Assembly (NCBI GenBank): GCA_012518315.1
Contig: JAAYSL010000084.1
Span: 20,336 to 84,335 of the forward strand
Source of the DNA: Bacillota bacterium
Lineage (GTDB): Bacteria; Bacillota; Limnochordia; DTU087
Length of the DNA stretch: 64,000 nucleotides
Reading direction: 5' to 3'
A model generated the notes under the pieces. That model made no database searches. It saw nothing but the letters and a program-made list of their open reading frames with translations, and was not told where the DNA came from. Of this stretch, positions 6,516-57,631 are shown piece by piece. A program made the position numbers and the translations under genes. Each line of letters begins with the position of its first letter. Position 1 is the stretch's first letter.

Positions 6516-9500
6516 TCATACCTGCTTTCCAGATAAAACCTCTATTCTAGCCGACGCCAAGCCGGAAGGAAGCGTTTTCCCTTCTAGCGTATTTGCGGAG
6601 GTGTTGGTAACTGCCAGAGTAACTGTATTACTGCTATCATGACATAGGTCCGAAACGTCAAACACATATGGCGCCCACAGGCGACAACCTGCTTCTTCCC
6701 CATTGACCCAAGCTTCCACCACTCCATCGTGGCCATCAGCTGTCAGCATGAGCCGTTTACCTTTCCAACTCCCGGGCAGATCAAAGGTCGTGCTATAGGT
6801 GCCCGTGCCAGAGTAAAAGGGGTAGCCGGAATCTGTCCAAGAACCCACGCCTAGCTTGGTTCTAGGAGCACCTAAACTGTAAGTGGCAGTCCCCGATTCC
6901 GTATTCGGTGAGGAGTCAGCCATACAGACACTAAAATCCCCCACCACCTTTAGCTTATCGACAATACCTCCCCATTCAGAGTCAACCTCTATTTTGACCG
7001 CCAGTTGATTCACTCCCTGGCGGACATATGCCTCCAATGGTACGGCAAGGATGTCACAATCCAAAGACGAAGCCTTGAGATTATCGCTGCTTACTAGGCT
7101 GCCATTGACATAGAGCTGGTATTTGCCCAGAAAACCATCGATAAGCATCTGGAGTCTATTGGGCAGATGCTGTAAATCTATCTTAGTGCGGTACCACAGA
7201 GTAGTTGGTGTAGGTACATCGCCTACATAGCTCCGGACGACTCTCATCCAGGGACCGTTGGTGGCCCAAACCCACTCCGTATCATCGAACTCCGGCAGAT
7301 GATATCCCTTGGATAAACCTTCTCCCTTAGGATCAATTCCTAGCCGCCAACTATCGATGAGCAACACATTATCTCCGCTCAGGGTGAAGTCCCATTCGCC
7401 CTTCAGATCGATGGGTGTCAAAACGTCGTTTGGCTTCGAGAATTCTGAGGACTCAATCTCCAGCTCCGGTTGTCCTGGTCTCACCATAAGAAAGATTGCC
7501 TGATGGGGCCACATATCTAGTTTAACCGTCATTTCGCTGGTGTCCAGGGCACTAACCACCCCATTCGCCGTCTCACCGGTTTCGGGGTTCCAGAGCTCCG
7601 GATGTCCAATCTTGCTTAGGGTGACCTGGATTGTTTTGTTATTGGCAGTAGTATTGACCAAAAAGTACAGGTCTAGATCGTCAGCTTGCCTGTGCAGGCA
7701 GAAAATATCCTGATCATCAATGTGCACTCTCCGATCGACTGCTGCGTCGAGCCCTTGAGCAAGCAGCTCTTCGGGATGGCTTTTACTAAGCCCGCCTGGG
7801 CTCTGCAAGAAACCCACATAGCCGCCTCCGGGGTGCGTTCCGGCATGCAATATAGCTCGATTGGCGCAGTCTTTTGAATCCCCCACTACTCCCGCCCCTT
7901 GGCTAATGACGGCAGCTGGACTTGCCTGTCCTAAATCAACGTTAAAGGTTTCTCGGACAAAATCCAGTACCTTAGGGTCACTAGCTACCACATCCGAATC
8001 CTCTGGTAGCATTGTGCAGGCTAGAAGACTGCCTCCCTCATCGAGAAACTCCTGCAGCTTATTTACTGTGTCCCTCTTTAGCATGCTCGTAGCAGGTAGG
8101 ATCAGAAGCGAATAACGATTTTGTCCTATAGACATAGCTCCATTTTCTACTATTGTCTCACTGATGGTGTCTTCGTCTATGTAATCAAAACCATAGTGGA
8201 GACGTAGTAGGGCATCAGTGAGATACGCTAGGTCAGATTCAATGATATCTGCCAAGGGGGTGCGTACCTGGGAAGTGTAGTTTTGCCAGTAGCTTCTTAC
8301 GGGATATAAAATCGCCATATCGGCCACAGGTCTACCGGTACTAAGAAGATAGCTTAAGCGGGAAATGTATTCGCTAAACTGCCCATAGTACTTCCACCAG
8401 GACTGCTGGTAGAACTGACAAGGTGGCCAATCTCGCTTCCTGTCCCCTTCAATACTATAATGTCCACCATGGGGGTTAAAGAGATTTACACCAAGGACGT
8501 ATTCCCAATCAGCCATGGTTTTCATATCCAGCATGGTGGTTGCCCACCCAAAACCACCGATGGATTCACACAGTACTCGTTTACTACCCACCTGGTGAGC
8601 AACAGAACTGGCTGCTTTGAGGGCTACATGCAGATCGGGCCTTTCCCTTGATCCCTTGGGGGAGAAAATATGGTCTACACCGACGATATCAAAGTGTTTG
8701 AGGTGGGTCATGACATTGCCTTCAGTGCGGGTTGCCAAATGGAACCATTCTTCAAACAGAAGATGACCTGTGAAAAGCAGATCATGATCATGACACCATT
8801 GCCTAACCCTCTCATAGAACACTGTGGACAGACGCTCTGTGAGCGTATTCCAGAAATCATATCTTACTATTCTTGAGTTGGTATCGACATCGTAGAACAG
8901 TGAGGCTAACCGTGACAAGAGATCATAGCCATTCTCAGTCTGAAAGAGCTCTCTCATCCCTTCTGTCCAGGGAATAAAGCCATTTTCCGGGTTAATCTGG
9001 TAATAGTGCATGGCTGGCTCGTCAGTATAGAACCCAGGGATGACATCACCAAAGTACTCCCCTACCCGCTTCGCATAGTGCTCATGGGTATATTCTATGA
9101 ACTTATCGACAGCCTTGGGGTTTAAAGCATCTATATACCATGGAGTCTGCTTCTCGATGAAGTGTAGTACTGCCCATTCACCCTCGGGAACCTCCCAAGC
9201 CATGATCATCGAGTCAAAGGAAATATATTGATTGAGATTAATCGCTCGGCTCCAGTTTTTCCTCCCGCTTTCAAGTGGTACTGCCCAGGCAGCAATAATC
9301 CTCCCACCATCAGTATCTAGATACCGAGCATCAGTTGTCTTGAGAAAGCTATAACGGGAGCCTATCTGATGGGTCTCGACTAGCTGTAAAAGTCGCTGGG
9401 TAAGCTCAGGGTGATCCTCACATACCTTAAGCCCAGCGGTCCCGCTAGGCCAATTATACTCATCGTAGATCCATAGCCTCATTCCGATTTTCTTAGCTTC

Positions 9501-9719
9501 CTTGCAGACTATCTCTATACAGTCAAACCATTCATCTGACAAATATGGCGTAATCAAACCATAGCGGCCATGGATATATATATCCGATATCTGCTTATCC
9601 CGAAACTCGTGTAACTGTCGAACCAATTCCTCTGGTCTGAGCCTAGAGTTCCACATCCAAAAGGGCTGAATGGAGTAATCCAGTGATGGTTGCTTGAATT
9701 CTGTCCCATGGAAAATCAC
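6516..9719 (-). CDS. large cytoplasmic glycoside-hydrolase-like protein (1067 aa; candidate GH106 alpha-L-rhamnosidase type, family assignment tentative)
   Basis: Uninterrupted 3.2-kb ORF. N-terminal PFWMWN...WIYDEYNWPSG motif block typical of a large glycosidase family, and a C-terminal galactose-binding-like beta-sandwich region. No signal peptide. Confidence 0.75.
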   Translation of the reverse strand: MIFHGTEFKQPSLDYSIQPFWMWNSRLRPEELVRQLHEFRDKQISDIYIHGRYGLITPYLSDEWFDCIEIVCKEAKKIGMRLWIYDEYNWPSGTAGLKVCEDHPELTQRLLQLVETHQIGSRYSFLKTTDARYLDTDGGRIIAAWAVPLESGRKNWSRAINLNQYISFDSMIMAWEVPEGEWAVLHFIEKQTPWYIDALNPKAVDKFIEYTHEHYAKRVGEYFGDVIPGFYTDEPAMHYYQINPENGFIPWTEGMRELFQTENGYDLLSRLASLFYDVDTNSRIVRYDFWNTLTERLSTVFYERVRQWCHDHDLLFTGHLLFEEWFHLATRTEGNVMTHLKHFDIVGVDHIFSPKGSRERPDLHVALKAASSVAHQVGSKRVLCESIGGFGWATTMLDMKTMADWEYVLGVNLFNPHGGHYSIEGDRKRDWPPCQFYQQSWWKYYGQFSEYISRLSYLLSTGRPVADMAILYPVRSYWQNYTSQVRTPLADIIESDLAYLTDALLRLHYGFDYIDEDTISETIVENGAMSIGQNRYSLLILPATSMLKRDTVNKLQEFLDEGGSLLACTMLPEDSDVVASDPKVLDFVRETFNVDLGQASPAAVISQGAGVVGDSKDCANRAILHAGTHPGGGYVGFLQSPGGLSKSHPEELLAQGLDAAVDRRVHIDDQDIFCLHRQADDLDLYFLVNTTANNKTIQVTLSKIGHPELWNPETGETANGVVSALDTSEMTVKLDMWPHQAIFLMVRPGQPELEIESSEFSKPNDVLTPIDLKGEWDFTLSGDNVLLIDSWRLGIDPKGEGLSKGYHLPEFDDTEWVWATNGPWMRVVRSYVGDVPTPTTLWYRTKIDLQHLPNRLQMLIDGFLGKYQLYVNGSLVSSDNLKASSLDCDILAVPLEAYVRQGVNQLAVKIEVDSEWGGIVDKLKVVGDFSVCMADSSPNTESGTATYSLGAPRTKLGVGSWTDSGYPFYSGTGTYSTTFDLPGSWKGKRLMLTADGHDGVVEAWVNGEEAGCRLWAPYVFDVSDLCHDSSNTVTLAVTNTSANTLEGKTLPSGLASARIEVLSGKQV

Positions 9720-10348
9720 CTAACAAGCCTCCCTTAGTGTATTACATCAAATTGACACTTACACAGCACGATTAACCGGGTTTCATTCCGAAATTACTGA
9801 TTCCGTCCCCAGAAGGTTACCAGACCGGCGTCACTGTAGCCTCATCTTCACCGCCTATGGAAACGTTTCCTGTCGCGGGACATATTTAGATTAAGTTAGA
9901 TGCACCCCTCCATCCAATTATGCCATCTATAACACGTAAAGCAGTAGCAGTTGATGGCTTGTATCATCGATGATCGCCTCAAATATACCTTCGCATGGAA
10001 GCTTTGTCAATCATAGTATGCTAATGGGACATGTTCCGGAAACTACCAAGAACCCTGCAAGAGATTAGGTTAGTGTAAAATTCCTGTAGGGTGGCCGGTA
10101 GGAATATCTAACCAGTGAATAGAAAAGAGATCTCACTGCCATCGCAAACGGCAGAGCTCAAGGCTCAAGCACTGAGATCTCTTAATGGAAATGACTCAGC
10201 ATATGGTGAATATGTTCCTGCAAGTGGGTGAGAAGGCTTTGGGCAAACTTGACAGGAAGATGCACACTACCTATACTGAAGGTGCTGGAAAGATACTGGT
10301 ATGAGCTTAACCGCCGCCTTGGCCTGTCGAGAATAGGAGGCGGTTTTT

Positions 10349-11446
10349 GTGTTGTTATGTTCCTATTCCCCACCTGTATCATTTCGTAGCAATCTTAGGC
10401 ATAGAGTCGGCCTTTTTCTGATGCTCATCGGACTTAGTCTACTTATCAGCGGGTGTTTTGGAGGCCTTGGCCAAACCGTATCATATCCCCCACCAGCACC
10501 TAAGGGTCCCACCGGTGGCGTGGCTGTAAAGGCTTTACTCATCTCCGATAGCGGAGATGGGCATACCATCGGCCGAGTGATAGCCACCCTAACGCGAGGT
10601 AGCCAAAGAATAGAGCACAACCTGGTGGTAGATCTAGATAGAATGGTAGCTTCAGGCAACTTATCCAAGGTTCTTATCGGCACCTGGAATCTGCGTGTCG
10701 ACGTCTATAGCAAACGAGACGAACTACTCTACACAGGATCAACTAGTGTGTTGATTGAGGAAGGCAAAACTATTAGCATAGAGCTTCAGCTTGGAGCCGC
10801 TCCCGGCACACTGATCATGGTGCTAGATATCAGTGATTTTGACAGCTATGAGCTCATCAAGGGTAAAATCATCATCGGCACCGGTGAGCAACCTGAGCTG
10901 GTCAAGGAGTTTACAAGAGGAGAAGACTCCCTGCTCACAGTCACTATTGATGAGCTAGACCCCCGGAGTCACGATCTGCGAGTGGAACTGTATAAGAACA
11001 CTTTCCACTCCTACAATCGCATCTATCAAGGGCCGTGGGAGGTTATTGCTATTCAGCCGGGCAAGATCCTGGAGATGAGTTGGCATCCGGCTTGGGGGTG
11101 TATTGAGGTCATCGGTGTGATTGACGCCCCTCCCCCCTCCCCTAGCGATGTAAGTGCAACTTTGCAGGATGACAGCATATTCATAGCTTGGACTGCTGTA
11201 AGACCTGTAGAGGATGATCTGGAAGCATATCTAGTATATGCGCAGCTTCATGCTTTTACTGGGTTTCAACTTATCGATACGGTACCCAAATCTGCGACCT
11301 CGTATTCGTATCGACCAGATACTTCATCTTATCCTGCCGGGGTGAGCATCCCCATCCAAATTGCCGTATCGAGCCTAGATGCCGGAGGAAACGAGAGCAG
11401 TCGTAGTAGCCCTGTGATAGTACCATGGCCCTCTGCCGGGAGTTAG
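10349..11446 (+). CDS. lipoprotein with C-terminal Fn3/Ig-like domain
   Basis: GTG start after AGGAGG. Lipobox LLISGC. Beta-rich C-terminal region (SIFIAWTAV...YLVYAQ) resembling an Fn3 domain. Confidence 0.6.
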   Translation: MLLCSYSPPVSFRSNLRHRVGLFLMLIGLSLLISGCFGGLGQTVSYPPPAPKGPTGGVAVKALLISDSGDGHTIGRVIATLTRGSQRIEHNLVVDLDRMVASGNLSKVLIGTWNLRVDVYSKRDELLYTGSTSVLIEEGKTISIELQLGAAPGTLIMVLDISDFDSYELIKGKIIIGTGEQPELVKEFTRGEDSLLTVTIDELDPRSHDLRVELYKNTFHSYNRIYQGPWEVIAIQPGKILEMSWHPAWGCIEVIGVIDAPPPSPSDVSATLQDDSIFIAWTAVRPVEDDLEAYLVYAQLHAFTGFQLIDTVPKSATSYSYRPDTSSYPAGVSIPIQIAVSSLDAGGNESSRSSPVIVPWPSAGS

Positions 11447-11580
11447 TGTCTTTAAGCGATTCGTCACAGTTTACCTAACAAAGCCAATTTCCTAATCGCC
11501 TAGAGAAAAGCGGTTCTTAGGGCAGGCGTTTTTACCTTTTGTCTCGAAGTAATTATGTCGGAGTGTGGGGAGGTAAAGCG

Positions 11581-12642
11581 ATGACAGCACGTGTAGGAGT
11601 TCCGAGATCCCTAGCATACTATGCATTTTACCCACAATGGAAGACGTATCTTGAGGAGCTTGGAACGGAAGTTGTACTAAGTCCCCCTACCACAAAAGAT
11701 ATCATAGATCAGGGCATCAAATATACGGTGACTGATGCCTGCATCCCCATAAAGGTGTTCCATGGGCATGTTGCTGCCTTGATCGGACAGGTGGACTATA
11801 TTCTGATTCCCCGATTGGTCAGCATCGATGGCGATGCTACCCTTTGTCCCAAATTCCTTGGGCTCTCCGATATGATCAAAGCCTCAATACAGGGTATCCC
11901 TCCTCTTTTGACACCCAGGCTGGATATTCGGGACGGACGGTTTGCCCCCATGAAGGCCTGGCTACGGGTTGCCAAAAAACTGGGAGCGGGCCGCCAGAAG
12001 GCCTGGCTTGCGTATCGGAAAGCAGTGCAAGTAGGACAATACTATGAGGCACTATTGGCCAACCATATGCTTCCTAGCGAAGCCATGTTAGCTGCAGATA
12101 AATGGCGGGCATCCTGGCCAAAGAAGCGGCCATTGAGTTTGGCTGAGGCCAGAAGCGGTATTGCCTCCGCCAAGGCATCGAAGACGCCAATGGAAGCCAC
12201 TGCAACCAGTAGGCAGGTCCAACTGGCCGTTGTTGGCTATCCATACATGCTGTACGATGACTATGTCACCTGTGGGTTGCTCACGAATCTGAAGAGCTTG
12301 GGTGCCAATATCTTAACACCTGAAATGGTTCCGGCCAAATGTCGGAAAGCACAGGCCAAGAAGCAACCCAAATACTTGTTCTGGCACTATAGTAATCAGG
12401 TGATACGGGCCACATATCATTTCTTCGAAGAAAAAATGATCGATGGCTTGATTCATGTGACGGCTTTTGGCTGTGGACCTGATGCCATGGTGGATAAGCT
12501 GCTTGAACTAGATTGCCGCAAACAGAATCGGTTACCCTACCTTTCATTATGTTTAGATGAGCATACAGGTGTAGCTGGAGTAATGACCCGTCTCGAGGCC
12601 TTTGTAGATATGTTAGTGCGTAGGAAGGGTGATTTGCGGTGA
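11581..12642 (+). CDS. DUF2229 'CoA-substrate-specific enzyme activase'-associated protein, paralog 1
   Basis: ATG 11581 after GGGGAGG. C-terminal block VTAFGCGPDAMV...LCLDEHTGVAGVMTRLEAFVDML is typical of DUF2229. Confidence 0.7.
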   Translation: MTARVGVPRSLAYYAFYPQWKTYLEELGTEVVLSPPTTKDIIDQGIKYTVTDACIPIKVFHGHVAALIGQVDYILIPRLVSIDGDATLCPKFLGLSDMIKASIQGIPPLLTPRLDIRDGRFAPMKAWLRVAKKLGAGRQKAWLAYRKAVQVGQYYEALLANHMLPSEAMLAADKWRASWPKKRPLSLAEARSGIASAKASKTPMEATATSRQVQLAVVGYPYMLYDDYVTCGLLTNLKSLGANILTPEMVPAKCRKAQAKKQPKYLFWHYSNQVIRATYHFFEEKMIDGLIHVTAFGCGPDAMVDKLLELDCRKQNRLPYLSLCLDEHTGVAGVMTRLEAFVDMLVRRKGDLR

Positions 12643-13736
12643 AGATAACTTTCCCACACATGGGAACTTCATGGATAGGCTTCAAGACTCTGATCGAAGG
12701 AATAGGCCATGAGGTAGTGCTTCCCCCTCCCCCCACCAAACGCACATTGGATCTTGGCACCAAATACGCACCGGAGTTTGCGTGCCTCCCCTTTAAGGTA
12801 CTCTTGGGCACATATTTAGAAGCCATTGAGTTGGGCGCTGATACGATTATCTCTTCCGGTGGGGTTGGCCCTTGTCGAGCTGGGTACTATACGCAACTGC
12901 AAAAGCGCATCCTGCAGGAACAGCTCGGCCACGATGTTAGGGTAATCACCTTTGAACCACTTAACCGCAACTGGGTAGGAACCTATAGGATTTTTCGGGA
13001 TTTGATTAGGGTTAACCTGCGAGAATTCATAGGGTTACTCTGGCTTACCTGGCAAAAGCTGCTGGCCCTAGATGCCATCGAACGGGAAAGTCACCGGGTA
13101 CGACCATTGGAGGTTAATACCGGATCCACAAGCCGCGTAGTATCTAAGGCGTTTGCCGATATCGACAAAGCTGATTCAGTCAAGAAAGTCAAGGATGTGA
13201 CTAGAGATAATCTAGAGAAGATGAACAGCCTTCCCCAGGATGCCCACCGACATCCTCTCAAAGTTGGTGTGATTGGGGAGATCTATGTGGTGCTAGAACC
13301 TTTTGTTAATCTCGATGTTGTCGAGACATTGGGTCATATGGGTGTGTACGTGCACCGTTCCATATTTCTTACTGATTGGACCATAGAAAACACGGTTCTA
13401 GATGCGTTTAGGGTGGAGGGTGAGATGAATATCAAAAAGGCCGCCCGACCCTATTTGCCGGAGATGATTGGTGGTCACGGTCAGAATAGCATTGGTGAAA
13501 CCATTCTTTATGCCAAGAAGGGCTATGATGGTGTAGTTCAGTTGGCCCCCTTTACTTGCATACCGGAGATAGTTGCCAAGAGCATTATTCCTAAAGTCAG
13601 TAGGGACTATAACTTACCGGTTCTAACCTTGATGCTAGATGAGCAGACGGGCAAAGCCGGTATCAGTACTCGTTTAGAGGCTTTTGTGGATCTATTGGCT
13701 ATGCGGCGGGTACGACTCGGAGGTGAGATTGCTTGA
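12639..13736 (+). CDS. DUF2229 protein, paralog 2
   Basis: GTGA start/stop overlap with the upstream gene. Paralogous C-terminal block LAPFTCIPEIVA...LMLDEQTGKAGISTRLEAFVDLL. Confidence 0.7.
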   Translation: MKITFPHMGTSWIGFKTLIEGIGHEVVLPPPPTKRTLDLGTKYAPEFACLPFKVLLGTYLEAIELGADTIISSGGVGPCRAGYYTQLQKRILQEQLGHDVRVITFEPLNRNWVGTYRIFRDLIRVNLREFIGLLWLTWQKLLALDAIERESHRVRPLEVNTGSTSRVVSKAFADIDKADSVKKVKDVTRDNLEKMNSLPQDAHRHPLKVGVIGEIYVVLEPFVNLDVVETLGHMGVYVHRSIFLTDWTIENTVLDAFRVEGEMNIKKAARPYLPEMIGGHGQNSIGETILYAKKGYDGVVQLAPFTCIPEIVAKSIIPKVSRDYNLPVLTLMLDEQTGKAGISTRLEAFVDLLAMRRVRLGGEIA

Positions 13737-14707
13737 ACGCATATCTAGGTGTAGATGTCGGTTCTGTGAGTACTAACTTTGTACTAATGGATGAGCAGGG
13801 GAAACTACTCGATAGTCTATATATCCGTACCAAGGGCCAGCCTATCCAAGCGATTCAGGCGGGCCTAAAAGCCTTGGAGAAGCAAGTACCCCCCTCCCTC
13901 AATGTGTTAGGAGCGGGAGCTACTGGGTCAGCCCGCCAATTGACTGGTGTAATTATTGGAGCCGATATTGTCAAAAACGAGATCACCGCCCACGCTGTGG
14001 CCGCTATGCATTGTGTTCCGGATGTACAGACAGTGCTTGAAATCGGGGGTCAGGACTCCAAACTGATCATTATCCGAGATGGTGTCGTAGTCGACTTTGC
14101 CATGAATACCGTCTGTTCCGCTGGTACCGGTTCTTTTCTGGATCATCAGGCGGCACGGTTAGGTATTCCCATTGAAGAGTTCGGAAAATTGGCGTTACAA
14201 AGTAAGCAACCCGTGCGGATTGCTGGCCGTTGCTCTGTTTTCGCCGAATCAGATATGGTACACAAACAGCAAATGGGCCATAAGACACCGGACATTATTG
14301 CTGGTCTGTGTGATGCCTTGGTGCGAAACTACCTAAACAACGTAGGTAAGGGCAAATCCATAGCAGCCCCTCTAGTCTTCCAAGGCGGAGTAGCGGCCAA
14401 CCAAGGTATTAGACATGCCTTTGAGAAAGAACTTGGTGTTCCGGTAATCATCCCGGAGGATTTCGGAGTAATGGGAGCACTAGGAATGGCAATCCTAGCG
14501 AAAGAGAATAGAGCCCAAGGCAAAAAAACCAGTTTCCGTGGCTTTGGTGCCAGTGAATTGAGATTTGCGACCCGGAGTTTTGAGTGTAATGGGTGTCCTA
14601 ACCAATGCGAGATTGTGGAGATTAGGCAAGATGAAACAGTCTTGGCTCGCTGGGGTGATCGGTGTCACAAGTGGCAAAACACTACTCGGGGCGAAGCTGC
14701 TAGTTAA
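13733..14707 (+). CDS. BadF/BadG/BcrA/BcrD-type ATPase (HgdC-like activase) with Cys-rich C-terminus
   Basis: N-terminal LGVDVGSVSTNFVLMD and ASKHA motifs (LEIGGQDSK, NTVCSAGTGSFLD), plus C-terminal CNGCPNQC...C...H. TTGA overlap with the upstream gene. Confidence 0.75.
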   Translation: MNAYLGVDVGSVSTNFVLMDEQGKLLDSLYIRTKGQPIQAIQAGLKALEKQVPPSLNVLGAGATGSARQLTGVIIGADIVKNEITAHAVAAMHCVPDVQTVLEIGGQDSKLIIIRDGVVVDFAMNTVCSAGTGSFLDHQAARLGIPIEEFGKLALQSKQPVRIAGRCSVFAESDMVHKQQMGHKTPDIIAGLCDALVRNYLNNVGKGKSIAAPLVFQGGVAANQGIRHAFEKELGVPVIIPEDFGVMGALGMAILAKENRAQGKKTSFRGFGASELRFATRSFECNGCPNQCEIVEIRQDETVLARWGDRCHKWQNTTRGEAAS

Positions 14708-14722
14708 ATCTACAGGCGGCCA

Positions 14723-15355
14723 TCATCTGGGGGTCTGGTAGGTACCACTTCCTGCCGGGCCCTTTTCATAATCGAGGATGTAAAAGCCATAGGCGTTTAT
14801 GACATACGTATCCCCCACCTTTGTCACCCGTTCTTGGTTACGGCCGTAATTCAGGTGAGTATGGCCATGAAAGAAATACTTGGGACTATGCTTCTCGATG
14901 ATCTGGTTAAAGACGGTGAACCCAGCATGGGTCACGTTCTCCATATCATGGATGCCCTTGGGTGGTGCATGGGTGATGACGATATCCACCCCCTTGTGGC
15001 GCCAGAGCCTGGGTCTCATCCACTGATAGGCCCAGTACATCTCCCGCTCGGTATATTGCACTGCCTCACGGGTATATACCTGACTACCCTCAAGGCCCAT
15101 AATCCGAATGCCTCTATAGGAAATGAGGCGGCCGTGAATATCCTCTCCCCCATCAGGTGGATCTTGGTCGAAAGACCGATCGTGGTTACCCCTGACATAG
15201 TAAAGGGGAGCATTAAAGGTAGACATCAAGTAAGACATATACCATTGCTTAAGATCACCACAGGCCAAAATCAGATCAATGGCGGGAAACCGCTCCGGCC
15301 GATAATAATCATAAAGCAAGGGATCGATATGATCGGCTACTACCAGCAAATGCAA
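14723..15355 (-). CDS. metallophosphoesterase (calcineurin-like)
   Basis: Motifs ACGDL, RGNHD, ITHAPP and GHTH. Confidence 0.8.
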   Translation of the reverse strand: MHLLVVADHIDPLLYDYYRPERFPAIDLILACGDLKQWYMSYLMSTFNAPLYYVRGNHDRSFDQDPPDGGEDIHGRLISYRGIRIMGLEGSQVYTREAVQYTEREMYWAYQWMRPRLWRHKGVDIVITHAPPKGIHDMENVTHAGFTVFNQIIEKHSPKYFFHGHTHLNYGRNQERVTKVGDTYVINAYGFYILDYEKGPAGSGTYQTPR

Positions 15356-15616: not shown

Positions 15617-15634
15617 TTGACCTTCCCTGACCTT
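15617..15634 (-). promoter_or_regulatory. CtsR-like tandem heptad operator (over the -35)
   Basis: Reverse complement is AAGGTCAGGGAAGGTCAA, i.e. GGTCAGG-GAA-GGTCAAG versus consensus RGTCAAA-NAN-RGTCAAA. Confidence 0.4.
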
Positions 15635-15645
15635 GATGGTATAAT
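15617..15645 (+). promoter_or_regulatory. sigma-A-type promoter of hsp20 (TTGACC-17-TATAAT)
   Basis: Perfect -10 and near-perfect -35 with a 17-nt spacer, about 45 nt upstream of the hsp20 start. Confidence 0.6.
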
Positions 15646-15691: not shown

Positions 15692-16132
15692 ATGGCTAAC
15701 CTAATACCATTTCGCCATCGTCGCATGCTGAGAAGTGATTGGAATCCATGGGATGATTTCATGCAGCTGGCCAACATGTTTGGGGACAGGGGTATGATGC
15801 CATCATTTAGCATGGCATATCCGGCTGTTGATGTAGAGGACACCCCTGAGGCTTATCTGGTGAAGGCCAATGTGCCTGGGTATGCCAAGGACGATTTGGA
15901 AATCGAGCTAGAAGGCAATATGGTTACAATTAAAGGTAACACCGTTGCCGAAGAGCAAACACAGTCCCAGGATCTCATCCATCAGGAGCGTTGCACGGGA
16001 GAATTCCGCAGAACCTTCGCTCTACCGACAGATATCGATGCTGAAAACGCGGAAGCGACCTTTGATCATGGTGTCCTAGAAATCCGCCTACCCAAAGCAC
16101 GTGGCAAGGGACGAAGATTGACGATCAACTAG
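15692..16132 (+). CDS. small heat-shock protein, Hsp20/alpha-crystallin family
   Basis: Alpha-crystallin domain (VDVEDTPEAYLVKANVPGYAKDDLEIELEGNMVTIKG...FDHGVLEIRLPK). RBS AAAGGGGG. Confidence 0.9.
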   Translation: MANLIPFRHRRMLRSDWNPWDDFMQLANMFGDRGMMPSFSMAYPAVDVEDTPEAYLVKANVPGYAKDDLEIELEGNMVTIKGNTVAEEQTQSQDLIHQERCTGEFRRTFALPTDIDAENAEATFDHGVLEIRLPKARGKGRRLTIN

Positions 16133-16283: not shown

Positions 16284-17564
16284 TCAACTCTTCTCTAGCG
16301 CTCGCCAAGCGATATCTCGCCGATAATACATCCCCTGAAAACGAAGCCGCTCCATAGCTTGATACACTTTGTCTCTAGCCTCTTGTATGTCATCTCCCAA
16401 GGCAGATATGCCTACAACACGGCCACCAGCTGTGACGATTCGTCCATCACGCAAAGCCGTTCCTGCGTGAAAGGCATAGATGTCGGGCAAAGCGCCTACT
16501 GCCGCCTCCAGGCCATCAATGGGAAAACCCGTGGTGTAAGCCCCTGGATAGCCCCCAGATGCCGCTATGACGCAAACCGAGGCTCGGGGATCCCAGTCAA
16601 GTGAGCCAAAAGAGCTTAGCCGACCCTGGTTTGCGGCAACTAGTAGCTCCACTAGGTCAGTTCTCAGCCTTGGCAAGACCACTTGGGTTTCAGGATCACC
16701 AAAACGACAATTATACTCAATCACCTTTGGGCCGTCCTTTGTCAACATTAGTCCAGCATAGAGCACTCCAGTATATTGAATTCCTTCTTGGCGCAGGGCG
16801 TTTAGCGTCGGAATCAGGATTGAATCATGAATCTTCCGCTCTACAGCCTGGTTTATCACAGGTACTGGGCTATAGGCTCCCATCCCACCAGTATTGAGCC
16901 CTTTATCACCTTCACCAATTGCTTTATGATCCTGGCTAGGAGCTAACGGTATGCAGCTTACTCCATCACAGACTGCTAAGATAGAGACCTCTTGACCAGA
17001 CAAATACTCTTCCACAACAATCCGCCGTCCTGCCTCACCCACCTCGTCTCCGGAAAGGGTGGCTTCGGCAGCCGTAAGGGCAGTATCAATATCTTGTGCC
17101 ACGACTACTCCCTTACCTGCTGCCAATCCGTCGGCCTTGATGACAATGGGAGCTCCCACGTGCTGGATATAGGCTTTGGCACTGGGAAAATCGGTGAAGA
17201 CCTCATAAGCCGCAGTCGGTATAGCGTATTTCTTCATTAGTTCTTTAGCAAAAACTTTGCTGCTTTCGATTTGGGCAGCTTTTTGTGTAGGACCGAAAAT
17301 CGCAAGGCCACGGGCACGAAAAACGTCGACTATACCGGCTGCTAAGTAGTCTTCTGGCCCTACAACAGTCAGGTTAATCCCCTTAGCTGAAGCAAACTCT
17401 GCTAATGTGTTAGGCTCGGCGGAGGCAAGATTGGGTATGCTAGCTTTCTGGGCAATCCCGGCATTCCCTGGAAAGCACCAGATGGCATCTACTTTGGGGC
17501 TTTCAGATAGCTTCTGCACCAAAGCGTGTTCCCTGCCGCCACCACCGATAACTAGTACTCGCAT
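16284..17564 (-). CDS. purD: phosphoribosylamine--glycine ligase
   Basis: MRVLVIGGGGREHAL start preceded by GGGGG, with ATP-grasp motifs. The longer ORF extends to 17591. Confidence 0.9.
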   Translation of the reverse strand: MRVLVIGGGGREHALVQKLSESPKVDAIWCFPGNAGIAQKASIPNLASAEPNTLAEFASAKGINLTVVGPEDYLAAGIVDVFRARGLAIFGPTQKAAQIESSKVFAKELMKKYAIPTAAYEVFTDFPSAKAYIQHVGAPIVIKADGLAAGKGVVVAQDIDTALTAAEATLSGDEVGEAGRRIVVEEYLSGQEVSILAVCDGVSCIPLAPSQDHKAIGEGDKGLNTGGMGAYSPVPVINQAVERKIHDSILIPTLNALRQEGIQYTGVLYAGLMLTKDGPKVIEYNCRFGDPETQVVLPRLRTDLVELLVAANQGRLSSFGSLDWDPRASVCVIAASGGYPGAYTTGFPIDGLEAAVGALPDIYAFHAGTALRDGRIVTAGGRVVGISALGDDIQEARDKVYQAMERLRFQGMYYRRDIAWRALEKS

Positions 17565-18157
17565 ATCACTTTTCGCCCCCGTATCTGCCACTCCCTGCTC
17601 AAAACCAGTGCAACTGCTTCTGGTAGAGTCTCATGCTCTTGAGCTAGAATCCGGTCTGACAGTGTTTCTTCAGTATCACTATCACAAACCGGTACAGCCC
17701 TTTGCACTATGATTGGACCTGTATCAAGCCCCTCATCGACAAAATGCACGGTACACCCCGAAACCTTCACTCCATATTCTAAAGCTTGGCGCTGTGCCCC
17801 GAGTCCCGGAAAAGCCGGCAATAGTGAAGGATGGATATTGATGATTTGATGGGGAAATGCCTTGATTAGATTGGCGGAAAGCAAGCGCATGAACCCCGCG
17901 AGGATTACCAAATCCACCTGGGCTTCATGAAGAATGCCAACCATTTTTTCGAAATATGCGGTACGCCCATCCTCGCCTTCCCAAGGGATCACTTTTGTCG
18001 GGATCCCGGCTTTTTCAGCTCTAGACAATCCCCAAGCCCCTGGCCGGTCACTAATGACCAAAACTATCTTTGCGTCGAGCTTCCCTATTTCTATGGCATC
18101 GATTAGGGCCTGCAAGTTAGAGCCCCGGCCCGAAATCAAGACTGCCAACCGTCCCAC
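17552..18157 (-). CDS. purN: phosphoribosylglycinamide formyltransferase
   Basis: LAVLISGRGSNLQALID, and NIHPSLLPAF formyl-transferase motif. Confidence 0.9.
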   Translation of the reverse strand: MGRLAVLISGRGSNLQALIDAIEIGKLDAKIVLVISDRPGAWGLSRAEKAGIPTKVIPWEGEDGRTAYFEKMVGILHEAQVDLVILAGFMRLLSANLIKAFPHQIINIHPSLLPAFPGLGAQRQALEYGVKVSGCTVHFVDEGLDTGPIIVQRAVPVCDSDTEETLSDRILAQEHETLPEAVALVLSREWQIRGRKVICEY

Positions 18158-18184
18158 TTTGCTTCCTCCTTAAGGCTTAGCTAT

Positions 18185-19216
18185 TTAGCTAAAGACCACT
18201 TTCCCCTCACCGGGAACCAACTCTCCGATGGTATAGGCCTTAAACCCAAGCTGGGACAGTGTTTGGACAGTTTCATCTGCCAGCCCAGGCTTTACCGTTA
18301 CCACCATGCCAATCCCCATATTAAACGTGTCATACATTTCTTCCTCATCGACCTGACCAGCTTTTCGCAGGATGTCGAAGATGGGATGCACAGGCCAAGA
18401 GCCTTTATGGATAACTGCATTGAGGTTAGCAGGCATGGAACGGGGTACATTTTCCGGTATGCCCCCTCCACTAATATTGGCAATGCCCAGAATATCAAGG
18501 TGATTAATCAGATGAAGAATTGGTCTCACATAGACGAGGGTGGGTTCTAGCAGCTCCTCCCCCAGGCTACGCCCTAAGTCATCAAAGTGATCAGAGACCT
18601 TATAGTCATGATCATGGAAGAAGATTTTGCGTACCAAGGAAAAACCACTACTTTGCAGACCACTAGAGGCCAGCCCCACCAGGACATCTCCTGCCTCAGC
18701 CCCTTGACCGGTTATGCAGCGGGATTTTTCTACAACCCCCACCGCAAATCCGGCCAAGTCATATTCGTCCTCTGGGTAGAAGCCTGGCATTTCTGCGGTT
18801 TCGCCCCCTACCAGAGCACAACCGGCCTGGCGACACCCTTCCGCCACTCCTGCCACAATCCTTTCGACTTTCTCGGGATGGGTCTTTCCCACAGCCAAGT
18901 AGTCTAGGAAAAACAAAGGTTCTGCACCCTGGCAAATGATATCATTTACACAATACGCGACAACATCAATCCCAATGGTATCGTGTTTGTCCATCATGAA
19001 AGCAACCTTCAGCTTAGTCCCAACACCATCAGTTCCGGCCACCAACACCGGTTCTCGGTACTTGCTATTGTCTAGAGCAAAAAATGAGCCAAAACTACCG
19101 ATATCTGCTAATACTTCCGGGCGATGGGTGGATTCTGTGTGTTTTCGAATCCGACGAACCACCTCATAGCCTGCCTGAATATCTACACCTGATGCCTTGT
19201 AAGTGCTTTTATCCAA
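18185..19216 (-). CDS. purM: phosphoribosylformylglycinamidine cyclo-ligase (AIR synthetase)
   Basis: KASGVDIQAGYE and AIRS N/C domains. Likely TTG start at 19216 after GGAGGG; the longer ORF extends to 19285. Confidence 0.9.
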   Translation of the reverse strand: MDKSTYKASGVDIQAGYEVVRRIRKHTESTHRPEVLADIGSFGSFFALDNSKYREPVLVAGTDGVGTKLKVAFMMDKHDTIGIDVVAYCVNDIICQGAEPLFFLDYLAVGKTHPEKVERIVAGVAEGCRQAGCALVGGETAEMPGFYPEDEYDLAGFAVGVVEKSRCITGQGAEAGDVLVGLASSGLQSSGFSLVRKIFFHDHDYKVSDHFDDLGRSLGEELLEPTLVYVRPILHLINHLDILGIANISGGGIPENVPRSMPANLNAVIHKGSWPVHPIFDILRKAGQVDEEEMYDTFNMGIGMVVTVKPGLADETVQTLSQLGFKAYTIGELVPGEGKVVFS

Positions 19217-19310
19217 TACTCTTCCCTCCGTTGATTGGATAGGATTGTCTCCAAACCAAATCCTCAACTTGCTCAATCCTTGCATTCTAGCCTCTGTGGC
19301 ACCTCATAGC

Positions 19311-23043: not shown

Positions 23044-23076
23044 GGTAGGTTACACTTATGCTATGTGAAACCTACC
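23044..23076. other. 12-bp stem hairpin in the purE-purL gap (possible internal terminator or attenuator)
   Basis: GGTAGGTTACAC-(9 nt)-GTGAAACCTACC, with one mismatch. T-rich flank on the minus strand (CUUUGCUUUC). Confidence 0.3.
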
Positions 23077-23264
23077 CGCCCAGGCTTTTATCCTTCTAGG
23101 GTGTAGCACTGTTACATGAACAGTGCCTGCACCACTTGGTCCAGACCCGCCTATAGGCGACGGAACCCTAGGTGCACTTTCAGCTAAGAAATCTTATTTA
23201 CTTGTCTGTCGGTTATCTATGTCAATTATAGCAGGGGTATGGTATGAGTGCAACTTCTAAACCC

Positions 23265-47911: not shown

Positions 47912-48220
47912 AACAAAACCCCTCATCCGATAAGGGACGAGGGGTTACTCGCGGTACCACCCTATTTGTGTGACGCAAAATCACACCACTTTAATCAGAC
48001 ACCTTTATCTATGAGCATAAAGCTACAGACAGTCGAGGCCTGCTTCCTTATAACGGTGGAAGTCTCCGTTGTTGCCTACTTCAAGTTCAGCAACACGGCT
48101 CCGGGGAGAACTTCACCTCTACCTTACGTACCGGCTTACACCTAACCCGGCTCTCTAGAACGTTTCAGCAGAACTACTTTTCCCCTTCATTGCCTTTTTA
48201 CAGACTGCTTGCATATGTTA
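47912..48220 (-). ncRNA. T-box riboswitch leader upstream of aroG
   Basis: Minus-strand leader contains the T-box core AAUAGGGUGGUACCGCGAG (plus coordinates 47948-47967), immediately followed by a terminator hairpin AACCCCUCGUCCC-UUAUC-GGAUGAGGGGUUUUGUUAUU (47912-47946). Stem I shows a K-turn/GA motif with AGUA box (GGCAAUGAAGGGGAAAAGUAG), an AG bulge (CUAGAGAGCC) and a distal loop (GGUGUAAGCC). Length about 310 nt. Confidence 0.85.
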
Positions 48221-57463: not shown

Positions 57464-57520
57464 GACTTCACCTCCGCGTTAATGAACCTCGCCCCCTTGC
57501 CCGTTTACCGATACTACCCA

Positions 57521-57552
57521 TAAAAAAAACCCTGCCATCCGGCAGGGCATGC
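57521..57552 (-). terminator. intrinsic terminator of the pyr leader attenuator (also terminates the upstream oxidoreductase gene)
   Basis: Minus strand: GCAUGCCCUGCC-GGAU-GGCAGGGU followed by UUUUUUUU, about 60 nt upstream of the pyrB ATG. Confidence 0.75.
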
Positions 57553-57613
57553 ATCTTCAATATAGCTTACAACAAGCTCCGGTGAATTGGCTACACCGGT
57601 AGTTGTCCCCTTG

Positions 57614-57631
57614 CTGACCTCGCCGGATCAT
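57614..57631 (-). promoter_or_regulatory. PyrR-binding loop candidate (anti-antiterminator) in pyrB leader
   Basis: Minus-strand RNA GAUCCGGCGAGGUC fits ARUCCNGNGAGGYU at 12/14 positions. It sits in the loop of a UUCCCUU/AAGGGGA stem upstream of the terminator. Confidence 0.5.

What the first reader, a model, noticed from the sequence alone, without database searches (positions are those of the whole stretch)
10349..14707. Uncharacterised reductive-activase-type module: lipoprotein plus two DUF2229 paralogs plus HgdC/BadF-type ATPase with Cys-rich tail
Three tightly coupled genes (GTGA and TTGA overlaps) encode two paralogous DUF2229 proteins and one ASKHA-fold ATPase of the 2-hydroxyacyl-CoA dehydratase activator family. 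The ATPase has an extra C-terminal CNGCPNQC...C...H metal-binding tail. In characterised systems the HgdC-type ATPase injects a low-potential electron into a partner dehydratase or reductase. Here the partners are DUF2229 proteins of unknown function, and no HgdA/B-type D-component is present. A lipoprotein with an Fn3-like domain lies immediately upstream, and a metallophosphoesterase converges downstream. The substrate and role of such DUF2229 'activase' systems are, to my knowledge, not established.
Basis: partly seen in the sequence, partly recalled or inferred. Interest (0 to 1): 0.55.

Follow-up and report, generated by a model that had tools for sequence, protein, structure and literature searches.

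The report
Split three-gene plasmalogen-synthase-like reductase operon
This is a real three-gene operon for an oxygen-sensitive, ATP-driven iron-sulfur enzyme whose parts match, one for one, those of the bacterial enzymes that turn ester lipids into ether lipids (PlsA/PlsR, Ger), so it is a widespread but untested split variant of a known enzyme family, not an unknown system.

Summary
Three translationally coupled genes (11581-12642, 12639-13736, 13733-14707, + strand) encode two paralogous DUF2229 proteins ("RedA", "RedB") and an HgdC-type ATPase ("Act") with a conserved four-Cys tail.

- The DUF2229 proteins are themselves the HgdA/B-like D-components. Both AlphaFold models match only HAD/BCR/DCCP D-components in the PDB, and each has three invariant Cys.
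- DUF2229 is no longer functionless. [quoted passage not shown]
- The window proteins match the domains of fused PlsA-type proteins one to one: Act to Act2, including the identically spaced Cys tail; RedA to Red1; RedB to Red2/PlsR.
- The triad nevertheless forms its own clade, with 22-25% identity in the Red domains and a single activase gene. It keeps the same gene order in nearly all of the 80 closest of at least 589 species genomes, mostly anaerobic Bacillota, and has no conserved fourth partner.
- The lipoprotein and the phosphoesterase are neighbours in this lineage only.

Most likely function: a three-subunit ester-to-(vinyl) ether lipid reductase. This is inferred, not shown. Verdict: new variant of a known kind, moderate interest.

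The parts
11581..12642 (+). RedA: DUF2229 protein and D-component paralog 1, counterpart of Red1 of PlsA. The mechanical ORF starts at 11539; the likely start is ATG 11581. Putative [4Fe-4S] ligands are C68 (11740-11742), C103 (11845-11847) and C312 (12472-12474), numbered on the 367-aa ORF.
   Evidence: - Pfam DUF2229, E 2.6e-46.
- AF2 model pLDDT 87.6; Foldseek hits at E<=1e-3 are almost only HAD/BCR/DCCP D-components.
- Invariant Cys in 35 homologs.
- 22-25% identical to Red1 of five fused PlsA-type proteins, E 1e-15 to 1e-22.
- Clusters with Red1 in the NJ tree.
- Start site.
12639..13736 (+). RedB: DUF2229 protein and D-component paralog 2, counterpart of Red2/PlsR. Putative [4Fe-4S] ligands are C49 (12783-12785), C79 (12873-12875) and C307 (13557-13559). 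Its start GTG overlaps the RedA stop (GTGA).
   Evidence: - Pfam DUF2229, E 2.2e-10, N-terminal part.
- AF2 model pLDDT 82.5; top 16 Foldseek hits are all HAD/DCCP/BCR D-components, the best being HadC 3o3n_B at E 1.3e-7.
- Invariant Cys in 30 homologs.
- 22-24% identical to Red2 of fused proteins and to the Fusobacterium PlsR-like protein.
- Tree placement.
- 100% identical to NCBI NLJ24783.1.
13733..14707 (+). Act: HgdC/BadF-type ASKHA ATPase (activase), presumably a homodimer bridged by one [4Fe-4S] cluster through C128 (14114-14116) and C167 (14231-14233). Its start TTG overlaps the RedB stop (TTGA).
   Evidence: - BcrAD_BadFG, E 8.5e-45; TIGR00241, 178 bits.
- PDB sequence hits: MbdQ 1.4e-40, HgdC 1.1e-33, HadI 2.3e-31, DCCP-R 1.1e-25.
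- C128 and C167 are invariant.
- 34-43% identical to Act2 and 26-32% to Act1 of PlsA-type proteins.
14585..14665 (+). Four-Cys tail of Act: C285-x2-C288-x-N-x-C292-x18-C311, a probable metal (Fe-S or Zn) site. In PlsA-type fusions the same motif sits at the Act2-Red1 junction.
   Evidence: - Invariant FEC..C.N.CE...RWG.RC..W in 20 homologs; H312 is not conserved.
- Identical spacing in Listeria, Collinsella, Fusobacterium and Haliovirga PlsA-type proteins.
- Absent from solved HgdC, HadI, MbdQ and DCCP-R chains, which are 243-276 aa long and whose printed alignments (MbdQ, HgdC) stop by residue 267.
10349..11446 (+). Lipoprotein gene (lipobox LISGC). It is a lineage-specific upstream neighbour that may be co-transcribed. 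It is not part of the conserved module.
   Evidence: - Signal peptide and lipobox in the sequence, conserved in relatives.
- No Pfam or NCBIfam hit.
- Found upstream of the triad only in the window's own clade, loci L001-L003 and L011-L018, at 52-62% identity.
10249..10277 (+). Sigma-70-like promoter match (TTGACA-17-TATACT, 11 of 12 bases) upstream of the lipoprotein ORF. No comparable match lies between the lipoprotein gene and RedA.
   Evidence: Consensus scan only. The number of matches in the region is not above the shuffled expectation, so this is a weak hint of a four-gene transcript in this lineage.

Best explanation
The three genes encode a self-contained, oxygen-sensitive radical enzyme of the benzoyl-CoA reductase / 2-hydroxyacyl-CoA dehydratase superfamily. 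It belongs to the DUF2229 branch, whose characterised members (PlsA/PlsR plasmalogen synthase and Ger glycerol ester reductase) convert the sn-1 ester of membrane glycerolipids into a vinyl or alkyl ether.

Proposed working, all by homology:
1. Act forms a homodimer that holds one bridging [4Fe-4S] cluster through C128 and C167 of each chain, and is reduced by ferredoxin or flavodoxin.
2. ATP binding and hydrolysis drive Act onto the RedA/RedB heterodimer. The four-Cys tail is the docking or relay element; in the fused enzymes this motif is the physical Act2-Red1 junction.
3. A low-potential electron passes to the [4Fe-4S] clusters of RedB (C49, C79, C307) and RedA (C68, C103, C312).
4. The substrate carbonyl is reduced through a ketyl-type intermediate and dehydrated. 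The most likely substrate is a diacyl glycerophospholipid and the most likely product a plasmalogen (1-alk-1'-enyl ether), possibly with some alkyl ether.

Shown here: gene structure, family and fold membership, conserved ligands, one-to-one domain correspondence with PlsA-type proteins, and conservation of the triad as an autonomous unit.

Inferred: cluster content, electron path, substrate and product.
For: 1. Family and fold.
2. Ligands: three invariant Cys in each Red family. They align with Cys in Red1/Red2 of fused PlsA-type proteins, together with K72, H77, D240, D315, D340, E341 and R351 of RedA. RedB C49 and C307 align with Cys of HadC, and RedA C312 with a Cys of DCCP.
3. Colinear correspondence with fused proteins from Listeria monocytogenes (1475 aa), Collinsella and Haliovirga, and with the two-gene Fusobacterium PlsA-like/PlsR-like pair: Act to Act2 at 34-38%, RedA to Red1 at about 24%, RedB to Red2 at 22-24%.
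4. The NJ tree groups RedA with Red1 and RedB with Red2, so the duplication predates the split between triad and fusion.
5. The Cys tail has identical spacing in Act2 of PlsA-type proteins.
6. The triad occurs in at least 589 species genomes, with the order RedA-RedB-Act kept in nearly all of the 80 best loci. No conserved neighbour and no recurrent CoA-transferase, ligase or acyl-CoA dehydrogenase partner was found. That fits an enzyme acting on a ubiquitous substrate.
7. Literature:
- PF09989 is the reduction domain of Ger, and Ger and PlsAR activity were shown in E. coli (PMC13159169, PMC12838417).
- Natranaerofaba carboxydovora, which has a triad-type Act 69% identical to the window's, has about 80% diether lipids plus plasmalogen-derived acetals (PMC8359318).
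- Moorella thermoacetica and Fervidicola ferrireducens (Thermosediminibacteraceae) make dimethyl acetals, and the triad occurs in a Moorella MAG and in Thermosediminibacter.
Against: - Identity to PlsA-type Red domains is only 22-25%. The triad is a separate clade, not nested among the fused enzymes.
- In a scan of 1.84 billion representative proteins, none of the best 150 relatives of RedA (E<=1e-55) is a long fusion.
- None of the experimentally verified proteins (C. perfringens Q8XL48/Q8XL47, E. faecalis Q835P9, T. maritima Tmari_0479) could be fetched. The references used are PlsA-type orthologs by architecture. The Listeria protein is the only such gene in its chromosome, and Listeria is reported to make plasmalogens anaerobically (PMC9702350).
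- It could not be tested whether genomes with the triad also carry a fused PlsA/Ger. The link between lipid phenotype and the triad is therefore circumstantial.
- The triad is not next to lipid-synthesis genes, and its proteins have no membrane segment.
- The published 'one activation domain' homologs could not be shown to be this triad, because Table S7 is cut off in the held copy.
Confidence: 0.5

Rival explanations
1. The triad is a functionally distinct third branch of the DUF2229 family. It uses the same ATP-driven iron-sulfur radical chemistry on a different carbonyl substrate, such as another lipid class or a soluble metabolite, so it is not a plasmalogen or alkyl-ether synthase.
For: - The clade is separate from the PlsA-type proteins, at 22-25% identity.
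- About 10 of 80 loci add an extra RedB paralog after Act, which suggests substrate or partner diversification.
- PMC13274423 states that the role of the additional PlsA homologs without an activation domain is unclear, and that Ger and PlsA cannot be told apart by sequence.
- Three of the thermophilic Bacillota whose lipids show acetals (Fervidicola, T. wiegelii, Moorella) also make N-glyceroyl alkylamines; those three and Caldicellulosiruptor also make 1-alkanols. The biosynthesis of these lipids is not assigned there.
Against: - The Fe-S ligands, several polar residues of RedA/Red1 and the Act2 tail are all shared with PlsA-type proteins.
- The lack of any conserved pathway partner argues against a catabolic substrate.
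- No positive evidence points to any alternative substrate.
Confidence: 0.3
2. The module is a classical CoA-thioester enzyme: a 2-hydroxyacyl-CoA dehydratase or an aryl-/enoyl-CoA reductase with its activator, as current database names suggest ('2-hydroxyglutaryl-CoA dehydratase', 'acyl-CoA dehydratase activase-related').
For: - The fold and the activator are those of HadBC/HadI, HgdAB/HgdC and BzdNO/MbdON.
- There are weak HGD-D matches at both C-termini.
- Source annotations use these names.
Against: - The HGD-D scores (25.8 and 22 bits) are below the gathering cut-off of 28.4 and cover only the last ~80 residues. DUF2229 scores 158 bits.
- Sequence matches to the solved dehydratases are marginal, E 0.05 to 1.
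- No CoA-transferase, CoA-ligase or acyl-CoA dehydrogenase is conserved next to the triad in 85 loci.
- The four-Cys tail is absent from the solved CoA-system activators.
Confidence: 0.1
3. The module is a double-cubane-cluster-protein (DCCP)-like reductase of small molecules, with Act acting as DCCP-R does.
For: DCCP is the top structural match of RedA (E 1e-9) and the best profile match (E 2e-4). DCCP-R matches Act (E 1.1e-25).
Against: - DCCP is a homodimer whose [8Fe-9S] cluster needs six Cys (my own knowledge of Jeoung & Dobbek 2018). Here there are two different paralogs with only three invariant Cys each.
- RedB is closer to HadC than to DCCP.
Confidence: 0.05
4. The functional unit is the four- or five-gene block read by the first stage, with the lipoprotein and perhaps the phosphoesterase working with the reductase.
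For: - The lipoprotein lies upstream of the triad in all 11 loci of the window's clade.
- The phosphoesterase is found downstream in 10 of those 11; the remaining locus ends within Act.
- The only strong promoter-like match lies upstream of the lipoprotein gene.
Against: - Both genes are absent from every locus outside that clade, including Natranaerobius, Monoglobus, Koleobacter, Desulfofundulus and Syntrophomonadaceae.
- The phosphoesterase is convergent.
- The lipoprotein is exported while the reductase is cytoplasmic.
Confidence: 0.1

Closest known systems
PlsA/PlsR anaerobic plasmalogen synthase (Clostridium perfringens CPE1194/1195; single fused gene in Enterococcus, Listeria, Bifidobacterium, Lactococcus)
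   Same: - The domain set is the same and maps one to one: an HgdC-type activase with the CxxCxNxC-x18-C tail (Act2), a DUF2229 Red1 and a paralogous Red2.
- The three Cys per Red domain and several RedA/Red1 polar residues are the same.
- Both are self-contained units without pathway neighbours.

   Different: - Three separate genes in the order Red1-Red2-Act, instead of Act1-Act2-Red1(-Red2).
- One activase gene, so presumably a homodimer, instead of two fused and diverged ATPase domains.
- Only 22-25% identity in the Red domains, and a separate clade.
- The product is untested.
Ger, glycerol ester reductase (Thermotoga maritima Tmari_0479; Desulfatibacillum alkenivorans SHJ90043)
   Same: It has the PF01869 and PF09989 domain families and the same presumed chemistry on an sn-1 ester (PMC13159169).
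   Different: - Ger is a single polypeptide with two activation domains. 'BBD' is conserved in all alkyl-ether producers, and the triad has one B on its own gene.
- Ger sequences could not be fetched for direct comparison.
2-Hydroxyacyl-CoA dehydratases with their activators (HadBC/HadI, HgdAB/HgdC) and class I benzoyl-CoA reductases (BzdNOPQ, MbdONPQ)
   Same: - The overall architecture is an ASKHA ATPase activator plus an alpha/beta pair of paralogous D-components.
- The fold matches over the full length, with TM-scores of 0.44-0.57.
- The activator's cluster Cys are the same.
   Different: - Sequence similarity of the D-components is marginal.
- There are no CoA-metabolism neighbours.
- The activator carries an extra four-Cys tail.
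Double-cubane cluster protein DCCP with DCCP-R (Carboxydothermus hydrogenoformans; PDB 6eno, 7yyl)
   Same: DCCP is the best structural match of RedA, and it uses the same kind of ATP-dependent reductase partner.
   Different: - DCCP is a homodimer with a six-Cys [8Fe-9S] site; the triad is a heterodimer of paralogs with three invariant Cys each.
- DCCP-R has no Cys tail.
YjiL/YjiM (with DUF3343) of Enterobacteria
   Same: It has an HgdC-type ATPase next to an HGD-D-type protein of unknown substrate. Act is about 33% identical to YjiL.
   Different: - YjiM is a regular HGD-D protein, not DUF2229.
- YjiL lacks the tail.
- Its context is different: DUF3343 and, in Slackia, selenium-linked genes (PMC5322559).

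Membership tests
BCR/HAD radical-enzyme superfamily (activator plus D-component) | HgdC/BcrAD-type ASKHA ATPase with the two Cys that bridge a [4Fe-4S] cluster across a dimer | tested here: met
   - PF01869, E 8.5e-45, and TIGR00241, 178 bits against a cut-off of 125.
- HgdC 1hux, E 1.1e-33.
- C128 and C167 invariant in 20 homologs.
BCR/HAD radical-enzyme superfamily (activator plus D-component) | A pair of paralogous D-components with the HgdA/B fold and Cys ligands for [4Fe-4S] clusters | tested here: met
   - Foldseek matches at E<=1e-3 are almost only D-components for RedA (18 of 19) and only D-components for RedB.
- Paralogy: HHalign probability 99.9%.
- Three invariant Cys in each family.
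BCR/HAD radical-enzyme superfamily (activator plus D-component) | ATP-dependent low-potential electron transfer to the D-component | not testable with these tools
   This needs anaerobic biochemistry.
DUF2229 (PF09989) family: reduction domain of PlsA and Ger | Match to PF09989 above the gathering score | tested here: met
   RedA scores 158.5 bits over model positions 1-218. RedB scores 41 bits over positions 17-73. The cut-off is 29.4.
PlsA/PlsR plasmalogen synthase | Two activation domains fused to Red1 (Act1-Act2-Red1), with Red2 fused or encoded by the next gene | tested here: not met
   There is a single 324-aa Act gene. It lies after, not before, the two separate Red genes.
PlsA/PlsR plasmalogen synthase | Four-Cys motif closing Act2 at the junction to Red1 | tested here: met
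   The spacing CxxCxNxC-x18-C is identical in Act and in Listeria, Collinsella, Fusobacterium and Haliovirga PlsA-type proteins. That this motif defines the family is my own observation from five sequences, not a published criterion.
PlsA/PlsR plasmalogen synthase | Orthology: placement inside the clade of verified or PlsA-type sequences | tested here: not met
   The triad's RedA and RedB each form a sister clade to Red1 and Red2 of the fused proteins, at 22-25% identity. The tree is a simple NJ tree with five fused references and no verified sequence, so the placement is provisional.
PlsA/PlsR plasmalogen synthase | Production of 1-alk-1'-enyl (vinyl ether) lipids from diacyl lipids | not testable with these tools
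   There is only circumstantial literature on lipids of genera and families in which the triad occurs.
Ger glycerol ester reductase | BBD core (two PF01869 domains plus PF09989) in one protein, conserved in all alkyl-ether producers (PMC13159169) | tested here: not met
   There is one PF01869 domain, on a separate gene.
2-Hydroxyacyl-CoA dehydratase D-component (Pfam HGD-D, PF06050) | Match to PF06050 above the gathering score | tested here: not met
   The scores are 25.8 and 22 bits against a cut-off of 28.4, and cover only the last ~80 residues.
2-Hydroxyacyl-CoA dehydratase D-component (Pfam HGD-D, PF06050) | Genomic association with CoA-transferase or other CoA-ester metabolism | tested here: not met
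   No such gene is conserved among the neighbours of 85 loci.
Double-cubane cluster protein (DCCP) | Homodimer with six Cys binding an [8Fe-9S] cluster | tested here: not met
   There are two distinct paralogs with only three invariant Cys each. The six-Cys requirement comes from my own knowledge of the DCCP structure paper.

The most novel reading that the evidence does not exclude
The RedA-RedB-Act triad, present in at least 589 species of mostly anaerobic Bacillota, is a third, functionally distinct branch of the PlsAR/Ger family. In this reading its product is not a plasmalogen or an alkyl glycerol ether. It could be another reduced membrane lipid of thermophilic and syntrophic Clostridia, or an unrelated carbonyl reduction. 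Current BLAST-based 'Ger/PlsA' surveys would then be miscounting it as ether-lipid capacity.
Probability: 0.25. Interest if true: 0.7.

Novelty: new variant of a known kind. Interest (0 to 1): 0.4.

Why it matters
Bacterial ether lipids and plasmalogens matter for gut-microbe physiology. They also matter for finding which bacteria produce the brGDGT membrane lipids that are used as palaeoclimate proxies. Current surveys predict ether-lipid capacity from BLAST hits to Ger or PlsA.

In pairwise comparisons the triad's Act matches fused PlsA-type proteins at 34-38% identity with E values of 1e-52 to 1e-62. It would therefore probably pass the cut-offs of E<=1e-30 and >30% identity used in PMC13274423. 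That paper reports unexplained 'one activation domain' homologs and 'no activation domain' homologs.

Recognising that such hits can be the three subunits of one operon, conserved in hundreds of anaerobic Bacillota, gives a concrete and cheap test: clone three genes and look for dimethyl acetals.
- If the test is positive, it would assign the plasmalogen synthase of lineages such as Syntrophomonadaceae, Desulfotomaculia, Moorellia and Natranaerobiia.
- If it is negative, it would show that homology-based ether-lipid predictions overcount.

The homodimeric, unfused activase would also be an easier biochemical handle on this enzyme class than the fusions of about 1,450 aa.

Tried and rejected
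1. **Conserved fourth partner.** I clustered 568 neighbour ORFs from 85 loci. Only lineage-specific synteny blocks appeared, so there is none.
2. **Selenoprotein idea.** It was prompted by SelA/SelB sitting directly upstream of the triad in 13 Syntrophomonadaceae loci, and by a selenium-linked YjiL-type activase in the literature. No in-frame stop aligns with any conserved Cys. Internal stops are either upstream of the true start or in obviously degraded copies (L066, L067, L072). Rejected.
3. **Verified reference sequences.**
   - The Jackson et al. 2021 paper is not held.
   - The Science Advances supplements are not held.
   - Table S7 and most of Table S3 of PMC13274423 are cut off.
   - I used PlsA-type proteins found in mislabelled chromosomes of the plasmid collection instead.
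4. **Structural search against AFDB** was not available.
5. **RNA elements.** No riboswitch or leader lies near the module.
6. **Second copy.** There is no other BcrAD or DUF2229 gene and no fused PlsA elsewhere in the 64-kb window.
7. **'Fn3-like' domain** in the lipoprotein: no profile support.
9. **Literature on the stand-alone form.** Searches for DUF2229, PF09989, COG3580/3581, 'acyl-CoA dehydratase activase-related' and 'CoA protein activase' found nothing on it.

Full report
**What is in the sequence**

The region holds four co-directional ORFs: 10349-11446, 11539-12642, 12639-13736 and 13733-14707. A convergent ORF lies at 14723-15355.

- Pfam and NCBIfam assign the second and third ORFs to DUF2229 (PF09989; E 2.6e-46 and 2.2e-10). 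Each also has a sub-threshold HGD-D match at its C-terminus.
- The fourth ORF belongs to the BcrAD_BadFG / acyl-CoA dehydratase activase family (E 8.5e-45; TIGR00241 at 178 bits).
- The convergent gene is a calcineurin-like phosphoesterase.
- The GTGA and TTGA overlaps are real, and each has a Shine-Dalgarno sequence upstream.
- The two DUF2229 proteins are paralogs: 25% identity, E 5e-21; their family profiles give HHalign probability 99.9%.

I call the three proteins RedA, RedB and Act.

RedA most likely starts at ATG 11581. GGAGG lies 8 nt upstream, homologs begin at residue 15, and close relatives carry a stop at codon 13.

The first ORF has a signal peptide and a conserved lipobox but matches no known domain. 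The window's proteins are already in NCBI, from an anaerobic-digester Bacillota MAG. RedB is NLJ24783.1 'CoA protein activase'; Act is in the 90% cluster of NLJ24784.1 '2-hydroxyglutaryl-CoA dehydratase', and its closest listed relative is 99% identical.

**The DUF2229 proteins are the D-components**

This is not so.

- AlphaFold models built on homolog alignments are confident: RedA has pLDDT 87.6 and pTM 0.85; RedB has pLDDT 82.5 and pTM 0.82.
- Against the PDB, the top 18 hits for RedA and the top 16 for RedB are all D-components of this superfamily. They are the double-cubane protein DCCP, HadB/HadC of 2-hydroxyisocaproyl-CoA dehydratase, BzdNO and MbdON. The matches run the full length, with TM-scores of 0.44-0.57.
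- Each family has exactly three invariant Cys: RedA C68, C103, C312; RedB C49, C79, C307.
- RedB C49 and C307 align with Cys of HadC, and RedA C312 with a Cys of DCCP, in sequence or profile alignments.
- Act has the two invariant Cys (C128, C167) that bridge the [4Fe-4S] cluster in HgdC-type dimers.

**DUF2229 has a known function**

A full-text search for DUF2229 leads to work on bacterial ether lipids.

- The anaerobic plasmalogen synthase PlsA/PlsR of Clostridium perfringens is a single fused gene in Enterococcus, Listeria, Bifidobacterium and Lactococcus.
- The glycerol ester reductase Ger of Thermotoga maritima and Desulfatibacillum alkenivorans has two PF01869 activation domains followed by PF09989/PF06050 reduction domains.
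- Both make vinyl or alkyl ethers from ester lipids when expressed in E. coli (PMC13159169, PMC8788747, PMC9702350, PMC12838417).

So the statement that the role of DUF2229 activase systems is not established was overtaken in 2021-2022.

**Direct comparison with PlsA-type proteins**

The verified sequences could not be fetched. However, the plasmid collection contains mislabelled chromosomes and genome fragments that carry PlsA-type genes:

- Listeria monocytogenes: 1475 aa, and the only such gene in a 2.9-Mb chromosome.
- Collinsella aerofaciens: 1479 aa, with a TetR gene next door, as described for E. faecalis.
- Haliovirga: 1449 aa.
- Fusobacterium animalis: a two-gene PlsA-like/PlsR-like pair of 975 and 404 aa.
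- Paraclostridium bifermentans: a divergent protein of 1282 aa.

The correspondence is colinear and one to one:

| Window protein | Counterpart in PlsA-type proteins | Identity | E-value |
|---|---|---|---|
| Act | Act2 | 34-43% | 1e-52 to 1e-70 |
| Act | Act1 | 26-32% | weaker (1e-21 to 7e-37) |
| RedA | Red1 | 22-25% | 1e-15 to 1e-22 |
| RedB | Red2, or the separate PlsR-like protein | 22-24% | 1e-9 to 1e-15 |

Three further results support this mapping:

- A neighbour-joining tree groups RedA with Red1 and RedB with Red2. In each group the triad sequences form a clade sister to the fused ones.
- All six Cys are shared across both kinds, as are RedA K72, H77, D240, D315, D340, E341 and R351.
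- The 'extra' tail of Act is invariant in the triad family as FEC-x2-C-x-N-x-CE...RWG-x-RC-x2-W. The following His is not conserved. The same CxxCxNxC-x18-C motif, with identical spacing, ends Act2 in four of the five PlsA-type references, at the junction to Red1. The solved CoA-system activators are too short to hold it.

**The triad is an autonomous, widespread unit**

They are mostly anaerobic Bacillota: Syntrophomonadaceae, Peptococcaceae/Desulfotomaculia, Moorella, Thermosediminibacter, Tepidanaerobacter, Thermincola, Halobacteroidaceae, Heliobacteriaceae, Dethiobacter and Limnochordia. A few MAGs are labelled Sumerlaeota or Deltaproteobacteria.
- Other searches add Natranaerobius and Natranaerofaba.
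- In the 80 best loci and 9 others, the order RedA-RedB-Act is kept almost everywhere. Four loci (L032, L039, L073, L080) have RedA-Act-RedB.
- Identity to the window ranges from 31-83% for RedA, 40-84% for RedB and 57-90% for Act. Act stays at 61-72% even between classes.
- Clustering of the flanking ORFs gives only lineage-specific synteny and no conserved fourth gene (individual contexts).
- The lipoprotein lies upstream of the triad only in the 11 loci of the window's own clade (L001-L003, L011-L018); the phosphoesterase is downstream in 10 of them.
- In a scan of 1.84 billion representative proteins, RedA has 2739 relatives. The best 150 are all stand-alone proteins of about 330 aa or RedA-RedB fusions of about 700-770 aa. 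None is a long PlsA-type fusion. The triad is therefore a large family of its own.

**Likely mechanism**

By homology with HgdC-type systems, and with the mechanism proposed for PlsAR (two one-electron reductions, protonation and dehydration; PMC8788747), I propose the following:

1. An Act homodimer carries a bridging [4Fe-4S] cluster.
2. The dimer uses ATP to inject a low-potential electron into the clusters of a RedA/RedB heterodimer. The four-Cys tail acts as a docking or relay element.
3. RedA/RedB reduce and dehydrate a carbonyl, most likely the sn-1 ester of a membrane glycerophospholipid. The product would be a plasmalogen, perhaps with some alkyl ether.

Circumstantial support:

- A 2026 study reports that Bacillota genomes carry PlsA-like homologs with only one PF01869 domain, whose presence correlates with plasmalogen production. 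It also reports additional homologs without an activation domain, of unclear role (PMC13274423). That description fits the products of a split operon, although I could not verify the identities.
- Natranaerofaba carboxydovora has a triad-type Act that is 69% identical to the window's. Its membrane is about 80% diether plus plasmalogen-derived acetals.
- Moorella thermoacetica and a Thermosediminibacteraceae strain (Fervidicola) make dimethyl acetals, and the triad occurs in a Moorella MAG and in Thermosediminibacter.

Against this:

- Identity in the Red domains is low, and the clade is separate.
- No verified reference sequence was available.
- Co-occurrence with fused PlsA/Ger genes is unknown.
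- There are no lipid-gene neighbours.

I put the general mechanism (ATP-driven Fe-S radical reductase/dehydratase) at about 0.9, and the specific ester-to-ether lipid function at about 0.5.

**Rivals**

- A distinct substrate within the DUF2229 family (0.3). This is supported by the separate clade and by an extra RedB paralog after Act in about 10 of 80 loci.
- A classical CoA-ester dehydratase or reductase (0.1). The sub-threshold HGD-D scores, the lack of CoA-metabolism neighbours and the PlsA-type tail argue against it.
- A DCCP-like small-molecule reductase (0.05). Two different paralogs with only three Cys each argue against it.
A promoter-like site lies only upstream of the lipoprotein gene.

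**Verdict**

The module is a split, single-activase variant of the PlsAR/Ger ether-lipid reductase family. It is widespread and conserved but experimentally untouched, so I rate it a new variant of a known kind.

Interest is moderate (0.4). Nothing here would astonish a specialist. But it gives the ether-lipid field a defined three-gene candidate, and a caution about homology-based 'Ger' counts.

Noticed in passing
L019, L021, L024, L040, L061, L062, L065, L070, L081, L086 (e.g. L019:6509-7621): In about 10 of the 80 related loci, an additional RedB paralog (32-45% identical to the window's RedB) lies downstream of Act on the same strand, giving RedA-RedB-Act-RedB'. In 9 of the 10 it follows within about 250 nt. 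One activase may serve alternative reductase pairings.
   Followed up: partly
L042-L045, L047, L051, L053, L057, L066, L071, L079, L084, L085 (upstream of the triad): In Syntrophomonadaceae, the selenocysteine genes selB (13 loci) and selA (12 of these) lie directly upstream of RedA on the same strand. No in-frame stop aligns with a conserved Cys of the triad, so there is no sign of a selenoprotein. This is probably lineage synteny.
   Followed up: yes
L032, L073, L080, L039: A few loci have the order RedA-Act-RedB instead of RedA-RedB-Act. A further locus, L029, has Act about 5.5 kb downstream of RedA.
   Followed up: no
L092:4074-7922 (Paraclostridium bifermentans plasmid pHD0315_2-2): A plasmid-borne 1282-aa Act1-Act2-Red protein is an outlier in the Red tree and lacks the four-Cys tail. 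It sits between a Crp/Fnr regulator gene and an ABC transporter operon. It may represent yet another DUF2229 subtype.
   Followed up: partly
Plasmid collection records NZ_CP030101.1, NZ_CP154629.1, NZ_CP084075.1, NZ_LR134399.1 and others: Several PLSDB 'plasmid' records are whole chromosomes or chromosome fragments (Listeria 2.9 Mb, Acetoanaerobium 2.6 Mb, Fusobacterium 2.1 Mb). This was useful here as a source of PlsA-type genes, but it is a data-quality caveat.
   Followed up: no
window 23075-23182 (-): Guanidine-I riboswitch aptamer: 72 bits against a gathering score of 63.
   Followed up: no
window 47930-48199 (-), 57520-57643 (-), 61150-61222 (+): T-box leader (151 bits), PyrR binding site (54.5 bits, just at threshold) and a tRNA gene.
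   Followed up: no
window 6516-9719 (-): A 1067-aa protein has an alpha-L-rhamnosidase-like (Glyco_hydro_106) core and GH2-type sugar-binding domains. It is divergently oriented from the lipoprotein gene.
   Followed up: no
window 15692-16132 (+) and 16284-19285 (-): An Hsp20 gene has a strong promoter-like match at 15617-15645. Purine biosynthesis genes (purD, purN, purM) follow it. In two of the closer relatives (L001/L013 lineage and L011) both the Hsp20 gene and the pur genes are syntenic with the triad; purD is syntenic in eight loci.
   Followed up: partly
L066, L067, L072: In three MAG loci the RedA or RedB gene is interrupted by a stop or frameshift; L072 RedB has eight in-frame stops. 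These are degraded copies or assembly errors.
   Followed up: partly
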